From assembly GCF_017348835.2 (NCBI RefSeq), contig NZ_CP071375.1: 64,000 nt of DNA; one strand, written 5' to 3'. The position numbers were made by a program. Position 1 is the stretch's first letter; each line of letters starts with the position of its first letter. This document shows positions 30,101 through 36,100 of the stretch, piece after piece. Origin of the DNA: Escherichia coli (GTDB lineage Bacteria; Pseudomonadota; Gammaproteobacteria; Enterobacterales; Enterobacteriaceae).

Positions 30101-33100
30101 GGAAACAAGAAAAACTGTCAGAACAAGTGCAAATGCTGTATTCATTGCCAGCATCCTTTTTGTATCGGACGTAAACGGGCCAACATTGAAAGAATGCATA
30201 TTTTATTTAATAGCTCCCGTTCGTGTTTTCTCTTGTTAATGGCATCTTCAGTAAATACAGGGTTACTGATAGTGACACCAATTTCAAAACAACCTTCAGA
30301 CGTATTAACGTTTGGTAATAACGTTTTCATTATCGCGCCCTCAACAATGAGTTTTGTGATGCGGTGCCTGGTGCCTCCAGGTGACGTTAACCAGTTAACA
30401 ACTAACGCCGGATACAGAGAATCCAACCATAACACTGTTTTTGGTTTTAACTGTTCCGCGTGCGCTTAGCCGCATTCACCGCATCACAAAATTCACTTTA
30501 AAAAGGGCGGCAGAGCAGTCACGGAGTAAAACTGATACCGCCAAACGTCACCAGAAAATTGATAACAGAGGGCGTTGCAGCGGGGTTGTCACTTAAGCGT
30601 ATGGTCAACCTGACAACCCGGTGTCCTCAACGGGGGAAGGAATAACCCCGCCATACTTACCGCCGCGCCATTTCGCGGATTGCCACAACCAGAAGCGCAC
30701 GGTCGAAGAAATTTAACGACAAGACTTATATGCAAAGGGATCTCGCCGTGCGCTTTCGTGTTATGCCCTGACTTTTCAGGGTAAATTAACCTGTGGAAAC
30801 CTGTTTTTACTGGCGCTAATCAGTTAGCGTTTCTGGCTAACCAGCGATGCGCGGCAGCTTCGGTTTTAAACGTTTTACTTTTGGTATACGTCATCGCGGT
30901 AAACGTGCCGTCCTGATTGGGAAACACGCCACATACCAGAGATTCGTTGTTGCCAAGCTCGATAGTATCCATGCTGACCTCATTTCCCCTTAACGCTGGG
31001 GTAGCGGAACTAAAAACCTGCTGCGCTGTTATACAAAGTGTTCCCGCCGTCATGTTCATACGCCTCGGGCTGGCTACTTAATCCCTGACCACAGCCGGGT
31101 AACTCTAGGTATTGCCCTGTATTGTGTGGGACGGGATGGGTTGGTATGGGAAAACTATAGGAAATGCCTAATTGCTTGTCAATAGGCCATGCCTAATGAT
31201 TTGGGTGCGACCTAATAGGTGATGGTTTGTGGGAGAGATAGTAGGAGTTAACTAACGGGAACTAGGAATTTCCCGTCGGACCATATAAGTTTAAGTTCCT
31301 GTCTTGGTGATGTTCTGGCTTTTCCGTTTTGATTCTTGATTTTTCAGATAGTTAGCTACCTTCATTTCCATTGCGGCAATGTAGGCGCGAACGTCATGAT
31401 CAACCCAACTAGGCTCCGTAGCATTTCCAGATAAGAGGAAAGCCACAATTGCTCTTTTTTCATCAGAGGCGGCTTGATAAAGGCTGTTTATGTCTAAAAG
31501 TTCACTTTTTGTATCTGAAGTGGATGGGGTTGGTATGGGGTATTCGTTAAGCCCCCAATGCTCTGGACCAACCACATCAGAAAAGAAACGCCATAGTTCT
31601 GGAAGTTTGTCTTTACTTATCGAACCTTTCTTAATCCAGTCATGGATTGATGGTGGTTGGACTTTGAAATGACGTGCGATTTCCGCCTTTGATTTGACGG
31701 CTCCTGATGCAATTTTTTTGTTAATGGCCTGCTCTATCGCTCGGCCTAAGTCTTTACCACTAAGCATTGCTTAATAGTCTCCTATGCGCATCGCGTTAGG
31801 CAATCCCTACTCTCGAAGCGTTAGGCATAGCCTATTGACAATCGCATTAGGCTAAGCCTAATATTATTGTGTGTTTTTTGGAGTTCATTCGATGAAAAAA
31901 GATAACTATTCATTCAAACGAGCTTGTGCTGTTGTCGGTGGGCAATCAGCAATGGCTAGGCTTTTAGGTGTATCTCCTCCAAGCGTAAATCAATGGATCA
32001 AAGGTGTACGTCAGTTGCCTGCTGAGAGATGTCCTGCGATTGAACGAGCAACAAAAGGTGGTGTCCTGTGTGAAGAACTTCGTCCTGATGTTGATTGGAC
32101 ATACTTACGACGCTCGTCATGTTATTCGCAGAATATGTCGATGAAGCAACCAAATGACGAAAACGATCATACCCGAAGCATCAAGAGGCAAATGATTCAT
32201 GAAAATCAAACATGAGCACATCCGCATGGCGATGAATGCCTGGGCATATCCTGATGGTGAGAAAGTTCCGGCAGCTGGAATAACCCAGGCTTATTTTGAG
32301 TTGGGTATGACGTTCCCAGAACTGTATGACGACAGCCATCCGGAAGCCCTGGCTCGCAATACCCAGAAAATTTTCCGCTGGGTAGAGAAAGACACCCCTG
32401 ATGCAGTTGAAAAAATTCAGGCGTTGTTACCAGCGATCGAAAAGGCAATGCCACCTTTGCTGGTGGCCAGAATGCGCAGCCACAGTTCAGCTTATTTTCG
32501 GGAGCTGGTGGAGACGCGGGAGCGACTGGTGAGAGACGCTGATGATTTTGTCGCAGTGGCAATCGCCGGTTTCAATCAGATGAACCGTGGTGGCCCGGCA
32601 GGAAATGCTGTGGCAGTGCATTGAGTGATAATAGCCATATCGAATCGCTTCCGGCAACTCGTGAGTAAAAAGATTCGGTATCAGAAGAGGTGAGTATGGC
32701 TAACGCCTGGCTCAGATTATGGCATGACATGCCAAATGACCCTAAGTGGCGAACAATTGCCAGGGTGTCAGGGCAGCCAATTGCAACAGTGATGGCAGTG
32801 TATATCCACCTCCTGGTGAGCGCGTCACGAAATGTCACGCGAGGTCACATTGATGTCACGACAGAAGATTTGGCAAGTGCGCTCGACGTGACAGAAGAGG
32901 TAATTGATTCAATTTTGCAGACGATGCAGGGGCGGGTACTTGATGGTGATTTAATCACTGGATGGGAAAAACGCCAGGTGCTTAAAGAGGACAACGGCAA
33001 TATTTCGCAAACCGCAAAATCTCCTGCAGAGCGCAAGAGGGCGCAGCGAGAGAGGGAAAGAAAGCGGGAACAAAATGGCGATTGTCACGGCGCGTCACGA

Positions 33101-36100
33101 AATGTCACGCACATGTCACGACGAGTCACGACAGATAAAGATACAGATAAAGATACAGATCAAGAAGATCAAAACACTATGGTCCATGGCGTAAAAAACG
33201 CCACGAACCAGGCAGGGGATGTTCAGACCGTCAACCCTGGTCAGCCAGCAGGCACGACACCGGAAGCCGATTCAGCGTATGCGCTGAAAGCCGATTCGGG
33301 CGCTGTGCAGCAGGTGATGACCGCAAGGCCGGAGCAATCACACCAACTGCAGCAGCCCGAAGCCGATTCCGCCATTCAGCGGGAAGCCGATCGGGTAGTC
33401 CCGGAAAACACCGGGCAGTCTGTGGGACGAGTGGATTATCCGGATGTGTTCGAACAGGTCTGGCGGGAATACCCGTTGCGTGCTGGGGCAAACCCGAAGA
33501 AATCCGCTTTCAGTGCCTGGAAGGCCAGATTACGCGAGGGGGTGCCACCAGAGGCCATACTGGATGGTGTGAGGCGTTACGCAAGATACCTGGCGGCTAC
33601 CGGGAAAACGGGAACGGAATTTGTTCAGCGAGCGACGACGTTTTTTGGGCCGGACCGGAATTTTGAAAACCCCTGGTTGCTCCCGGTAAGCGGCACGAAC
33701 AACCAGCGTTGTGTGAATCATATTTCTGAACCGGATACCGAAATTCCGCCGGGATTCAGGGGGGGATGTGGCATGAAAAACATTGCGGCAGCCGGGGTTC
33801 TTGAACGTATTCGCAGACTTGCACCACAGGCGTCGGTTCCACCGTACCGGACGGTGGAGGAGTGGCGGGAATGGCAACTTGTTGAAGGACGAAAACGCAG
33901 CGAGGAGATTAACCGCCAGAATCACCAGTTGCGGGTGGAAAAAATCCTGAATCGTTCGGGCATCCAGCCTCTGCACAGCAAATGCTCGTTTGCGAATTAT
34001 CAGGTGCAGAACGACGGGCAAAAATACGCGCTGAGCCAGGCCAAATCCATAGCTGACGAACTGATGACCGGGTGCACGAATTTTGTGTTCAGCGGTAAAA
34101 CCGGCACCGGGAAAAATCACCTTGCAGCGGCGATGGGTAACCGGCTGATGGCGAAGGGGCGCAGCGTGATTATTGTCACCGTGTCTGATGTCATGAGCGT
34201 GTTGCATGACAGCTACGACAACGGCAAATCCGGGGAAAAATTTTTACAGGAGCTTTGCAGTGTTGATTTGCTGGTCCTGGATGAAATAGGCGTTCAGCGG
34301 GAGACGAAAAACGAGCAGGTGGTATTACACCAGATAATTGATCGCCGGACAGCATCACTGTGCAGTGTCGGGATGTTAACAAACCTGAATCATGCCGCAA
34401 TGAGTACACTTCTTGGTGAGAGGATTATGGACCGCATGACCATGAACGGTGGTCGATGGGTGACGTTTAACTGGGATAGCTGGCGTCCAAATGTCAGCAA
34501 TATGAGGGTTGTGAAGTAATTTTGTCCGGAGGAAATTTTAATGGAAACCGTATCTGACGCACTGAAAGCACTGAAAAAAGCCTCTTCACATGTGGTGGCA
34601 GCTCGCCTTGGAATCAGTCGTGAAGAGGCTGTCAACGAGCTGTGGGAACTCAAAAGAAATGGCGTCGTTGATAAAACTGGTCACACCTGGTTTCTGGCTG
34701 GCGAAGGTGAATCCCGGGTAACCGAAGAGCGGCCAGTAAAATCTGAAGCACAGGATATGCTGACCGGGGAGGTCGAACAAAAAGTTACCGCAGACATGAT
34801 GATTGAGTTTATCGGTCAGGATGGGGCTAAAACGTGTGAGGAACTGGCGGGTAAGTTCGGTGTCAGTACTCGCAAGGTTGCTTCCACGCTGGCGGTGGTA
34901 ACCGCAACGGGGCGGCTGGCACGCGTTAATCAGAACGGTAAATTTCGTTACTGCATGCCGGGCGATAATTTACCAGCAGAGCCGAAAGCCGCGCTGGTAA
35001 CGGAAAGTGATGGTAAGGCCTTTCCTCAGCCAGCAGGTGCTGCGTTACCAGTCCGGGAAGCCGCAACACAGGAAGAAATTAAAACAGAAACTGTGGCGGA
35101 CATTGTGCAGCCGTTGCCATCGTTTACCGAAACGCAAGCAGATGAGCTGATTTTTCCGTCCCTTCGCAGGGCAAACCTGGCGCTGCGCAGGGCGAAAAGT
35201 GATGTTCAGAAGTGGGAGCGAGTCTGCGCCGCGCTGCGGGAGCTGAACAAGTGCCGGGATATTCTCCGGGATATTACCGCCACCAGAGAACAGCAGCGGT
35301 GAGTGGGTGGAAGACGTGGTGCCGGGCGGAAATCATGATACTCCGGCAGTGTGCGGGAACGAGGAAGGTAAAAAGCGTTGGCGCACTTATCGGACGAACT
35401 GAAGCGGCAGTGAGAACGAAGGCACGGGAGCTGGGCATCAGCATGATGTTACGTGGTGATTTTCACCCGTCGGCAAAATATTCTCAGCGTGATATTGAGC
35501 TGGCGCGGCAACTGCATCAGAGAGGCATGCAAAGAAGGGAAATTGCCAGAAAATTAGGCATGCCGCTGCGCATAGTGAATAACTACGTTTATTTCGACAG
35601 GAGGGTGTCTGCGTGAAAATCCTGTATCAGGATTACGGCCCGGTGGGGCAGGTGGTTATCAGCAGTACTGTAATGGAGTTTCGGAAGCATAACCGTGTGG
35701 TGGATGCTGTGCTGTTAACCTGTCCGGGGATATCGGCGAGTCGTGCAGGTGTGTTTATTATGAAGACGAAATTATATGGCAGTAAGGCGTGGATAAAGAA
35801 GGCGTATCGTGTAGCGTTGCAGGAGGTTAACAGTGAGTGAAATTAAAGAAATGCCGGTAGTTCGTGACGGATATGGCAACTGGACACATCCTGAATATGA
35901 AAAATTCTGTGATGGTCGGGAATATATTTCAACGGAAGAGTTTAACGCCTGGATGGAGGAAAATAATCTTCAATACGTCCTCTGCTTCAGAGATGAAGGA
36001 TGTGCTGACCTTGATGCGTGTGATGCTGATATTTCTGCATGGGAACCGGAACGACCAGAGGGCGATGGCTGGTTTATTGGTTCCATTCATGATACGGAAG

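What the first reader, a model, noticed from the sequence alone, without database searches (positions are those of the whole stretch)
32690..34519. In-frame fusion of initiator-like and DnaC-like replication proteins with two internal iteron clusters
A single 609-aa ORF joins an O/YdaU-like N-terminal region to a complete DnaC-like AAA+ helicase loader, which begins at an internal Met (MKNIAAAG). These are usually two genes. Inside the N-terminal coding region are two clusters of GTCACG iterons at helical-turn spacing (four copies at 32824-32860, five at 33084-33130), then a 12-bp tandem AT-rich repeat. That is the classic arrangement of an origin embedded in its initiator gene.
Basis: seen in the sequence. 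Interest (0 to 1): 0.5.

Follow-up and report, generated by a model that had tools for sequence, protein, structure and literature searches.

The report
Stop-loss fusion over a prophage origin
In an E. coli Rac-like prophage, one base change removed the stop codon between the replication initiator gene and the DnaC-like helicase-loader gene, giving a rare fused reading frame, and the initiator gene contains what looks like the phage's lambda-style replication origin.

Summary
The ORF runs from 32690 (likely true start ATG 32696, 607 aa) to 34519. It joins a full-length 356-aa phage initiator to a complete 248-aa DnaC-like loader.

The fusion is not a designed architecture. Near-identical prophages have TGA at 33764-33766, and this window has GGA, a T-to-G change in GGGGGTGA. 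The allele is rare: 4 of 534 complete E. coli genomes and 1 of 46 IMG/VR junctions. It sits on at least two haplotypes, mostly in decaying prophages, and NCBI annotates the initiator as a pseudogene. A Shine-Dalgarno-like site (AGGGGG) remains upstream of the loader ATG.

The iteron reading is well supported:
- GTCAC(G/A) occurs four times at 32824-32860 and five times at 33084-33130, spaced 10-11 bp.
- Next come a 29% GC tract of 12-bp repeats and a conserved hairpin.
- The motif rotates through all three codon frames.
- Homologues at 42-53% identity keep both clusters.
- Some lineages switch the core to GTAACG in both clusters together.
- Unrelated initiator types carry their own repeats at matching positions.

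This is a new member of the lambda-type origin-within-initiator kind, carried by a stop-loss variant. Interest is modest.

The parts
32687..32693 (+). Shine-Dalgarno-like GAGGTGA for the initiator. The mechanical GTG start at 32690 lies inside it.
   Evidence: Read directly from the sequence. NCBI annotation of identical DNA starts at the ATG equivalent to 32696.
32696..33763 (+). Initiator ('phage replisome organizer') coding part, 356 codons. Helical N-terminal domain aa 2-77, basic helix aa 110-126, disordered linker aa 129-244, helical C-terminal domain aa 250-302, DnaT-like tail aa 332-356.
   Evidence: phrog_3729 matched over 1-356 of 356 positions, E 1e-256. The 356-aa form is cluster P0001 with 5786 members. 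AlphaFold2 model. Tail matches DnaT at 15 of 25 residues.
32824..32860 (+). Iteron cluster 1: GTCACG, GTCACG, GTCACA, GTCACG at 32824, 32834, 32844, 32855. It encodes a length-variable, low-confidence loop (aa 43-55).
   Evidence: Conserved in homologues at 42-53% identity. Low-pLDDT loop at aa 47-51.
32887..32892 (-). Possible inverted iteron copy (CGTGAC on the + strand). It may be a by-product of the conserved LDVTE codons.
   Evidence: It is present at the same gene position in L089 and L091, but the GTAAC lineage has a direct-orientation GTAAC there, so its function is uncertain.
33084..33130 (+). Iteron cluster 2: five GTCACG at 33084, 33094, 33104, 33115, 33125. It encodes the start of the disordered linker (aa 130-145).
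33131..33179 (+). A-rich, low-GC tract (29% GC). Contains 2.9 tandem copies of ACAGATAAAGAT (33131-33165) and two GATC sites (33158, 33167). Proposed DNA-unwinding element.
   Evidence: Equivalent GATAAA or GAACAG tandem tracts follow cluster 2 in all eight initiator types compared.
33180..33210 (.). Inverted repeat TGGTCCATGGCGT / ACGCCACGAACCA around an A-run. It is conserved at the DNA level after the AT-rich tract.
   Evidence: Inverted repeat I6, 13-nt arms, 85% complementary. CCATGGCG-A7-CGCCAC is shared by five of eight types, including homologues at about 50% protein identity.
33758..33767 (+). Ribosome-binding site of the DnaC-like gene. It reads AGGGGGGGAT here and AGGGGGTGAT in relatives. 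It overlaps the lost stop codon, and here it contains a run of seven G.
33764..33766 (+). GGA codon where relatives have the initiator's TGA stop. This is the single T-to-G substitution that creates the fusion.
   Evidence: Alignment with strain 88_1577 (TGA) and PE164 (GGA). 4 of 534 genomes match the junction exactly. IMG/VR has 1 GGA against 45 TGA.
33773..34519 (+). DnaC-like AAA+ helicase loader, 248 aa plus stop. Walker A GKTGTGKN at 34094-34117, Walker B LLVLDE at 34268-34285.
   Evidence: NF009043 507.7 bits against cutoff 389. PF01695 67.3 bits against cutoff 24.1. Matches 6qel DnaC at E 3e-72. 80% identical to K-12 YdaV.

Best explanation
This is the replication module of a Rac-like lambdoid prophage of E. 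coli. Normally it has two genes in the same reading frame, separated by a stop codon and 6 nt: a 356-aa initiator and a 248-aa DnaC-like helicase loader.

In this lineage a T-to-G substitution turned the initiator's TGA into GGA, inside the run GGGGGTGA that also serves as the loader's ribosome-binding site. The initiator is therefore translated only as a 607-aa initiator-GCG-loader fusion. The loader alone can probably still be made from its own AGGGGG site and ATG at 33773. The fusion is most likely a neutral or mildly degenerative variant of a prophage that is copied passively by the host.

The initiator gene also contains the element's probable replication origin. The proposed sequence of events is as follows.
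1. The initiator's N-terminal domain binds the GTCACG repeats. There is one per helical turn, in two arrays 260 bp apart.
2. The assembled complex opens the adjacent A-rich 12-bp repeat tract.
3. The initiator's DnaT-like C-terminal region brings in the loader with host DnaB helicase.

Shown here: the sequence anatomy, the mutation and its rarity, and the conservation and concerted change of the repeats. Inferred: binding, unwinding, helicase recruitment, and whether the fused protein is active.
For: The fusion is a stop-loss allele:
- DNA identical apart from the single base at 33764 across 33171-34650 has TGA in strain 88_1577. That strain carries separate 356-aa and 248-aa genes.
- NCBI annotates the initiator in GGA-bearing genomes as a pseudogene, 'missing C-terminus'.
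- Only 4 of 534 complete genomes match the GGA junction exactly. In IMG/VR the count is 1 GGA against 45 TGA.
- No other protein in a 5.8-billion-sequence database covers more than 62% of the fusion.
- K-12 ydaU/ydaV and POCJ13 gp16/gp17 both keep stop + 6 nt + ATG, so any stop loss gives an in-frame fusion.

The allele is real, not a one-off error:
- The exact 607-aa product is on 4 NCBI contigs.
- GGA occurs on two haplotypes that each also exist with TGA.

The context is decaying prophages:
- SMN013SH2 and OkiPb01679 have a truncated integrase and truncated ydaS.
- In strain War the initiator is also frameshifted.

Evidence for an origin:
- Phasing far exceeds chance, with 7 adjacent pairs at 10-11 bp against at most 2 in 2000 simulations.
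- GTCAC falls in codon frames 3,1,2,1 and 2,3,1,3,1, so there is no amino-acid periodicity. The nearby AAGCCGAT repeats all sit in one frame, as expected for a protein-level repeat.
- Homologues at 42-53% identity keep both clusters, with copy numbers from 3 to 6.
- L090 and L092 have GTAACG in both clusters instead.
- The unrelated War/POCJ13 initiator type has AAGGGGCTT repeats in two clusters at equivalent gene positions. In POCJ13 the second cluster is inverted. K-12 ydaU has TGTTCAAAC-type repeats.
- In all eight types compared, an A-rich tandem tract follows cluster 2. Five of the eight share the hairpin.
- Both clusters lie in protein segments predicted to be a variable loop or a disordered linker.
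Against: - No experiment shows that this fragment replicates or that the initiator binds GTCACG.
- The role of cluster 1 is unknown. A third initiator type joined to the same loader has only one repeat cluster.
- The structure model is weak overall (mean pLDDT 55). No significant fold match confirms a winged-helix DNA-binding domain.
- Recurrence of the GGA allele, and its persistence in a prophage that looks largely intact in this window, could also mean the fusion is tolerated or useful.
- Concerted change of the two clusters could partly reflect gene conversion between them rather than co-evolution with the protein.
Confidence: 0.8

Rival explanations
1. The fusion is a functional, selected single-chain initiator-loader. 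It tethers the helicase loader covalently to the origin-bound initiator, and its repeated appearance reflects benefit rather than decay.
For: - The allele occurs on at least two haplotypes and in three prophage backgrounds.
- It is inherited in lineages sequenced by different laboratories.
- The join connects a tail predicted to be disordered to the loader's N-terminus through only three residues.
- The prophage in this window looks largely complete.
Against: - It is rare, at about 1-2% of junctions.
- Two of the three backgrounds are clearly decayed or also frameshifted.
- No diverged fusion homologue exists in 5.8 billion proteins, so the fusion has never persisted long enough to diverge.
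- The loader's N-terminal region matches the part of DnaC crystallised with DnaB (6kza), so an N-terminal extension could interfere.
Confidence: 0.12
2. The missing stop is a sequencing or polishing artefact at a G homopolymer (T read as G after GGGGG), and the true sequence has TGA.
For: The change lies at the end of a G run and extends it from five to seven G. From general knowledge, base-calling errors are more frequent in this kind of context.
Against: - The same allele is present in several independent assemblies: PE164, SMN013SH2, OkiPb01679, War, IMG genome 2700989509, GCA_910593615.1 and GCA_032490275.1.
- It follows prophage lineage. SMN013SH2 (USA) and OkiPb01679 (Japan) share the identical decayed prophage and the allele.
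Confidence: 0.05
3. The GTCACG clusters, cluster 1 in particular, are regulatory sites rather than the place where replication starts. They might serve in initiator titration, handcuffing, incompatibility, or blocking transcription through the gene.
For: - Only cluster 2 is followed by the AT-rich tract and the hairpin.
- Cluster 1 lies 260 bp away, inside the DNA-binding-domain coding region.
- One initiator type manages with a single cluster.
- In lambda, origin iterons on plasmids can silence phage replication (PMC3349717).
Against: - Both clusters carry the same core and change together, which suggests a single binding protein.
- The two-cluster plan recurs in an unrelated initiator type.
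- This view is compatible with cluster 1 acting as an auxiliary part of a two-part origin, so it is not exclusive of the main explanation.
Confidence: 0.2
4. The repeats are a side effect of amino-acid repeats in a low-complexity protein segment and have no function at the DNA level.
For: The segments encode simple sequence such as SRNVT and DKDTDKD. The nearby (E/K)ADS repeats are of this protein-level kind.
Against: - GTCAC rotates through all three codon frames, giving SR, VT and CH/GH dipeptides, so the repeat exists only in the DNA.
- The core is kept across homologues whose surrounding protein sequence and length vary.
- GTAACG lineages shift spacing to 9/12 or 11/10 bp, which avoids the frame that would read TAA.
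Confidence: 0.03

Closest known systems
Bacteriophage lambda origin inside gene O, with O and P proteins
   Same: - The origin lies inside the initiator gene. Direct repeats bound by the initiator sit next to an AT-rich tract. Lambda has four 18-bp iterons and a 38-bp AT-rich sequence at 39034-39160 within O (PMC3349717).
- The origin sits in the segment encoding the link between the DNA-binding and partner-recruiting halves.
- A helicase-loader gene lies immediately downstream.
   Different: - No lambda O Pfam family hit was found.
- The repeats have a short 6-7 bp core, one per helical turn, rather than 18-bp units.
- There are two clusters 260 bp apart instead of one.
- The partner is a DnaC-type AAA+ loader, not lambda P. 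Some homologues of this initiator do pair with P-like proteins.
Rac prophage ydaU-ydaV of E. coli K-12 (Rac carries an active origin, oriJ, per PMC3945230)
   Same: - Same gene order: racR, ydaS, ydaT, initiator, DnaC-like gene, DUF1627 gene.
- YdaV is 80% identical to the loader here.
- Same stop + 6 nt + ATG in-frame junction.
- ydaU also contains phased repeats followed by a GATAAAGAT tract.
   Different: - YdaU (285 aa, DUF1376) shares only the last 19 residues and the DKDTDKD patch with this initiator.
- Its repeats are TGTTCAAAC-type.
- K-12 keeps its TAA stop.
- I could not find where oriJ has been mapped in the papers available.
Host dnaT-dnaC operon
   Same: - The initiator tail SEPDTEIPPGFRG matches the DnaT C-terminus SEPDSQIPPGFRG (15 of 25 residues).
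- The loader is a full-length DnaC homologue.
- The gene junction itself is homologous: GGATTCAGRGGGTRA ... ATGAAAAAC.
   Different: - DnaT has no origin-binding N-terminal domain and no iterons.
- dnaT and dnaC are separated by TAA + 2 nt, so they are out of frame.
- The loader scores below the DnaC equivalog cutoff, 297.7 against 357.
Phage 'replisome organizer' initiators with intragenic origins, for example SPP1 G38P and oriL
   Same: NCBI names this protein 'phage replisome organizer'. The shared concept is an initiator that binds repeats inside or next to its own gene and recruits a helicase loader.
   Different: No Pfam hit to the replisome-organizer N-terminal family was found at E <= 0.01. 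The resemblance to SPP1 rests on my own knowledge and on the title and abstract of PMC5737612. It was not tested here.

Membership tests
Lambda-type origin embedded in the initiator gene | An array of at least three direct repeats on one strand inside the initiator coding sequence | tested here: met
   4 + 5 GTCAC(G/A) copies at 10-11 bp spacing. 7 phased adjacent pairs against at most 2 in 2000 simulations.
Lambda-type origin embedded in the initiator gene | An AT-rich, easily melted tract directly next to the repeats | tested here: met
   33131-33179 is 29% GC and is the GC minimum of the ORF. Equivalent tracts occur in all eight types compared.
Lambda-type origin embedded in the initiator gene | Location in the segment that encodes the linker between the DNA-binding and recruiting domains | tested here: met
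   Cluster 2 and the AT-rich tract encode aa 130-160, at the start of the disordered region aa 129-244. Cluster 1 encodes a low-confidence loop at aa 43-55. The model is of modest quality.
Lambda-type origin embedded in the initiator gene | Repeats co-vary with initiator specificity | tested here: met
   GTCACG changes to GTAACG in both clusters in L090 and L092. A different N-terminal type has AAGGGGCTT in both clusters.
Lambda-type origin embedded in the initiator gene | The initiator binds the repeats, and the fragment supports replication | not testable with these tools
   Needs binding assays and a plasmid replication assay.
Lambda O protein family (Pfam Phage_rep_O) | Sequence match to the family profile | tested here: not met
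   The Pfam scan at E <= 0.01 returned only AAA+ families, all on the C-terminal half.
PHROG 3729 phage replication initiation protein | Full-length profile match | tested here: met
   E 1e-256, residues 3-358 against profile positions 1-356 of 356.
YdaU / DUF1376 | Homology over the N-terminal DUF1376 domain | tested here: not met
   BLASTP against K-12 YdaU aligns only the last 19 residues (E 7e-06) and a short low-complexity patch.
DnaT-like C-terminal region | Match to the DnaT profile or domain | tested here: inconclusive
   Only the last 24 residues match NF002770 (18.1 bits against cutoff 201) and PDB 6aep/2ru8 (E 0.016-0.024). Many relatives that share the C-terminal half carry Pfam PF17948.
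DnaC/IstB-type AAA+ helicase loader | Profile match above the curated cutoff, with Walker A and B motifs | tested here: met
   PF01695 67.3 bits against 24.1. NF009043 507.7 bits against 389. GKTGTGKN and LLVLDE are present. Matches 6qel chain residues 2-241.
DnaC equivalog (host-type DnaC) | Score above the NF005931 cutoff | tested here: not met
   297.7 bits against a cutoff of 357. This is a phage paralogue, 80% identical to YdaV.
Established initiator-loader fusion protein family | Diverged homologues that span both halves in one polypeptide | tested here: not met
   No listed hit covers more than 62% of the query. Only the exact 607-aa sequence is on record, on 4 contigs.

The most novel reading that the evidence does not exclude
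The origin may be a two-part intragenic origin. In this reading, two phased iteron arrays about 255-290 bp apart are both required and are bridged by the initiator. Their spacing and copy number would be jointly constrained by helical phase and by the reading frame of the gene that hosts them. The recurrent GGGGGTGA-to-GGGGGGGA change would then act as a mutational hotspot that converts the module into an active single-chain initiator-loader.
Probability: 0.1. Interest if true: 0.55.

Novelty: new member of a known kind. Interest (0 to 1): 0.3.

Why it matters
For genome annotation, the fused ORF should be read as a stop-loss allele of two ordinary genes, not as a new protein architecture.

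The origin anatomy is of modest but real interest. It gives a sequence-defined candidate origin for a very common family of E. coli, Shigella and Yersinia prophages, whose initiator cluster has 5786 member sequences. It shows a natural change of the repeat core between GTCACG and GTAACG in both clusters together. It also shows a DNA signal sharing space with a coding sequence: the repeats sit in a loop and a linker, and the GTAACG form avoids the codon frame that would read TAA.

The rare natural fusion offers a ready-made test of whether an initiator and a DnaC-type loader still work when joined covalently.

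Tried and rejected
- **Fold search.** I ran the AlphaFold2 model against the PDB. No match reached E <= 0.001. The top weak hits were mostly winged-helix repressors, but this is not usable evidence.
- **Literature.** Searches for oriJ mapping, ydaU/ydaV and iterons in replisome-organizer phages found no description of this origin. The 'Eru' replication-type paper concerns helicase-type modules and is not relevant.
- **Second IMG/VR scan.** I led the query alignment with a divergent homologue to collect GTAACG-type loci. It returned almost only the same E. 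coli family. The divergent DNA came from exact-protein look-ups instead.
- **Programmed read-through.** I considered that the conserved in-frame stop + 6 nt + ATG arrangement might reflect programmed read-through. I rejected it as unsupported, because the examples share ancestry and the stop differs among relatives (TGA or TAA).
- **DnaA box.** I looked at a possible DnaA box near 32800. It is a poor match by eye and the segment codes for conserved VYIHLL, so I did not pursue it.
- **Inverted copy at 32887.** It cannot be separated from the conserved LDVTE codons.

Full report
**1. What is in the sequence**

The ORF 32690..34519 is real. Its mechanical GTG start lies inside a GAGGTGA ribosome-binding site. 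The likely start is ATG 32696, which NCBI annotation uses in identical DNA, giving 607 aa.

Residues 3-358 match the 356-position PHROG 3729 'replication initiation protein' profile end to end (E 1e-256). Residues 370-608 match the DnaC-like helicase-loader PHROG 50. Pfam sees only AAA+ families (IstB_IS21, Bac_DnaA) in the C-terminal half and no lambda O family.

Taken from the internal Met, the loader:
- matches NCBIfam NF009043 over 1-248 of 248 positions (507.7 bits, cutoff 389), but stays below the DnaC equivalog cutoff;
- matches E. coli DnaC in structure 6qel over chain residues 2-241 (E 3e-72);
- is 80% identical to K-12 Rac YdaV;
- has Walker A (GKTGTGKN) and Walker B (LLVLDE) motifs.

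**2. The fusion is a single-base stop-codon loss**

The region is an E. coli Rac-like prophage. Upstream are racR, a ydaS-like HTH gene and ydaT. Downstream is a DUF1627 gene. In the near-identical strain PE164 the prophage is integrated beside potC.

In strain 88_1577, DNA that differs at only this one base across 33171-34650 carries two genes: a 356-aa 'hypothetical protein' and a 248-aa 'ATP-binding protein'. The alignment shows GGGGGTGATGTGGCATG there and GGGGGGGATGTGGCATG in the window and in PE164. So T became G at 33764 and TGA became GGA.

The two genes share a reading frame and are separated only by the stop and two codons, so losing the stop fuses them. K-12 ydaU/ydaV (TAA + CTGACC + ATG) and phage POCJ13 gp16/gp17 have the same spacing. 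NCBI's pipeline calls the initiator in GGA genomes a pseudogene, 'missing C-terminus'.

*How common the allele is*
- A 61-bp junction query matched exactly in 4 of 534 complete E. coli genomes. The other 530 have at least one mismatch.
- In IMG/VR the exact GGA junction occurs once and the TGA junction 45 times.
- Among 80 IMG/VR loci with this initiator, about 70 end in TAA and are followed by a different gene, as in phage Tritos. Eight have TGA plus the loader gene, and one is fused.
- In a 5.8-billion-protein database no listed hit covers more than 62% of the fusion.
- The exact 607-aa sequence is on record on four NCBI contigs.

*Whether it is an error*

This is unlikely. The allele is present in several assemblies from different laboratories and follows prophage lineage. 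SMN013SH2 (USA) and OkiPb01679 (Japan) share one decayed prophage and the allele. The window, PE164, IMG genome 2700989509 and GCA_910593615.1 share another.

GGA sits on two haplotypes that each also exist with TGA. So the change either recurred or moved on a short conversion tract of 220 bp or less. A T flanked by G runs is a plausible substitution hotspot, but that is my inference.

*Whether it is adaptive*

The evidence leans against it.
- Two of the three backgrounds are clearly decaying. SMN013SH2 and OkiPb01679 have a truncated integrase and truncated ydaS. In War the initiator is also frameshifted.
- The allele is rare.
- No diverged fusion homologue exists.

The loader can probably still be made alone, because AGGGGG remains 9 nt upstream of ATG 33773. 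The wild-type AGGGGGTGAT is a longer match to the ideal Shine-Dalgarno sequence, and the mutation breaks it. The comparison with the anti-Shine-Dalgarno sequence is from general knowledge.

**3. The repeats behave like an origin**

*Layout*
- GTCACG starts at 32824, 32834 and 32855, with GTCACA at 32844.
- Five more GTCACG start at 33084-33125, at spacings of 10-11 bp.
- Directly after the second cluster come 2.9 copies of ACAGATAAAGAT. They lie in a 29% GC, A-rich tract (33131-33179) with two GATC sites, which is the GC minimum of the ORF.
- Then comes an inverted repeat around an A-run (33180-33210).

*Statistics*

There are seven adjacent pairs at 10-11 bp, against at most two in 2000 simulated genes. 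No other place in the 64-kb window has three GTCAC within 45 nt.

*Evidence that selection acts on the DNA*
1. The motif falls in codon frames 3,1,2,1 and 2,3,1,3,1, so it is read as SR, VT and CH/GH. The AAGCCGAT repeats at 33264-33391 all sit in one frame and encode (E/K)ADS, as a protein-level repeat would.
2. In a protein alignment of homologues at 42-53% identity, the two segments vary in length and are built from those same dipeptides.
3. The DNA of four divergent homologues confirms this:

| Homologue | Cluster 1 | Cluster 2 | What follows |
|---|---|---|---|
| Yersinia (L089) | six GTCAC | three GTCAC | AT-rich tract |
| L091 | four GTCACG | three GTCACG | (GATAAA)4 |
| L090 | about five GTAACG | about four GTAACG | AT-rich tract |
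| L092 | three GTAACGC | three GTAACGC | AT-rich tract |

The core therefore changes in both clusters together.

4. GTAACG read in the third frame would be TAA. In those lineages the copies use only the other two frames, with spacings of 9,9,12,9 or 11,10.
5. An unrelated initiator type (strain War, phage POCJ13) joined to the same C-terminal half and loader has AAGGGGCTT repeats in two clusters at equivalent gene positions. In POCJ13 the second cluster is inverted. K-12 ydaU has TGTTCAAAC-type repeats followed by the same GATAAAGAT tract.
6. Across eight types the order is type-specific repeats, then an A-rich tandem tract. In five of them the hairpin CCATGGCG-A7-CGCCAC follows and is nearly identical at the DNA level.

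A third initiator type has a single cluster of longer repeats, so two clusters are not universal.

*Fit to the protein*

An AlphaFold2 model (mean pLDDT 55, but 80-87 across most of both helical domains) shows:
- helices at aa 2-77;
- a low-confidence loop at aa 47-51;
- a basic helix at aa 110-126;
- disorder at aa 129-244;
- helices at aa 250-302;
- a disordered tail at aa 332-356.

Cluster 1 encodes the loop. Cluster 2 and the A-rich tract encode the start of the linker. The DNA signals therefore sit where the protein tolerates almost any sequence. A fold search gave no significant match.

**4. Proposed mechanism**

Steps 1-3 are inferred by analogy with lambda.
1. The N-terminal domain binds the iterons, one per helical turn on one face, in two arrays 260 bp apart. 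The distance is 255-290 bp in relatives.
2. The complex distorts and opens the A-rich repeats.
3. The C-terminal half brings in the DnaC-like loader with host DnaB. Its last 25 residues resemble the DnaT tail (15 of 25 identical), and the junction with the loader gene is homologous to the host dnaT-dnaC junction.

Homologues of this initiator pair with other partners: lambda-P-like proteins, a Toprim-DnaB primase-helicase, or nothing recognisable. The module is therefore exchangeable.

In this window the initiator exists only as the fusion. Whether the fusion works is unknown.

**5. Comparison with known systems**

The closest known system is lambda's origin inside gene O, with four 18-bp iterons and a 38-bp AT-rich tract (PMC3349717). 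The plan is the same. The protein family, the repeat type, the two-cluster layout and the loader type differ.

Rac of K-12 is the closest relative in gene order and loader sequence, and it is reported to have an active origin, oriJ (PMC3945230). I could not find where oriJ maps.

**6. Verdict**

The fusion is a rare, real, probably neutral or degenerative stop-loss allele. The embedded origin is well supported by comparison but untested experimentally.

Novelty is a new member of a known kind, and interest is about 0.3.

Noticed in passing
window 30976-30978, compared with L001 3066-4377: The window matches the strain PE164 prophage apart from 2 mismatches over about 12.7 kb, except that PE164 carries an IS3-family insertion between the DUF1391 gene and racR. 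The window lacks this insertion.
   Followed up: partly
window 33264-33391: AAGCCGAT occurs four times (33264, 33288, 33360, 33384), always in the same codon frame. It encodes (E/K)ADS repeats in the disordered linker. This is a protein-level repeat and served as an internal contrast to the frame-rotating iterons.
   Followed up: yes
L003 (phage Tritos) 3097-4630; about 70 of the IMG/VR loci L009-L088: Most phages carrying this same initiator have no DnaC-like gene. The similarity to the window stops exactly at the initiator's stop codon. Downstream is a 140-aa protein with no NCBIfam match. How these phages load a helicase is unclear.
   Followed up: partly
L089, L090, L091, L092: Homologues of the initiator at 42-53% identity are paired with different partners: lambda-P-like proteins (L089, L092), a 611-aa Toprim-DnaB primase-helicase (L091), or no recognisable partner (L090). 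The initiator and its partner appear to be exchanged as modules.
   Followed up: partly
L090 gene nt 142-181; L092 gene nt 152-173: In lineages whose iteron core is GTAACG, the copies avoid the codon frame that would read TAA. The spacing shifts to 9,9,12,9 or 11,10 bp. The reading frame of the host gene appears to constrain the spacing of the repeats.
   Followed up: partly
L179 (IMGVR_UViG_2671180275_000008), initiator ORF nt 340-510: A third initiator type (322 aa) upstream of the same loader junction has a single cluster of repeats of the GACCCGTCAAAT type in its linker, followed by an A-rich stretch.
   Followed up: partly
L094 850-960 (K-12 dnaT-dnaC junction): The host dnaT ends ...SEPDSQIPPGFRG, followed by TAA, CG, then the ATG of dnaC. 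This is homologous to the phage initiator-loader junction at both protein and DNA level, which suggests the phage module and dnaT-dnaC share ancestry.
   Followed up: partly
window 33759-33765: The stop-loss mutation lengthens a run of five G to seven G, inside the ribosome-binding site of the loader gene.
   Followed up: no
window 42176-44026; L095 32992-34844: The DUF6645-family gene is an intact 616-codon ORF in the window but is annotated as frameshifted in PE164. The copy in the window looks less decayed than the one in PE164.
   Followed up: no
L005 (strain War) 2907-4030: In strain War the initiator is of the other N-terminal type. It carries both a frameshift and the same GGA stop loss, and an ECs1072-family gene lies between ydaT and the initiator.
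   Followed up: partly
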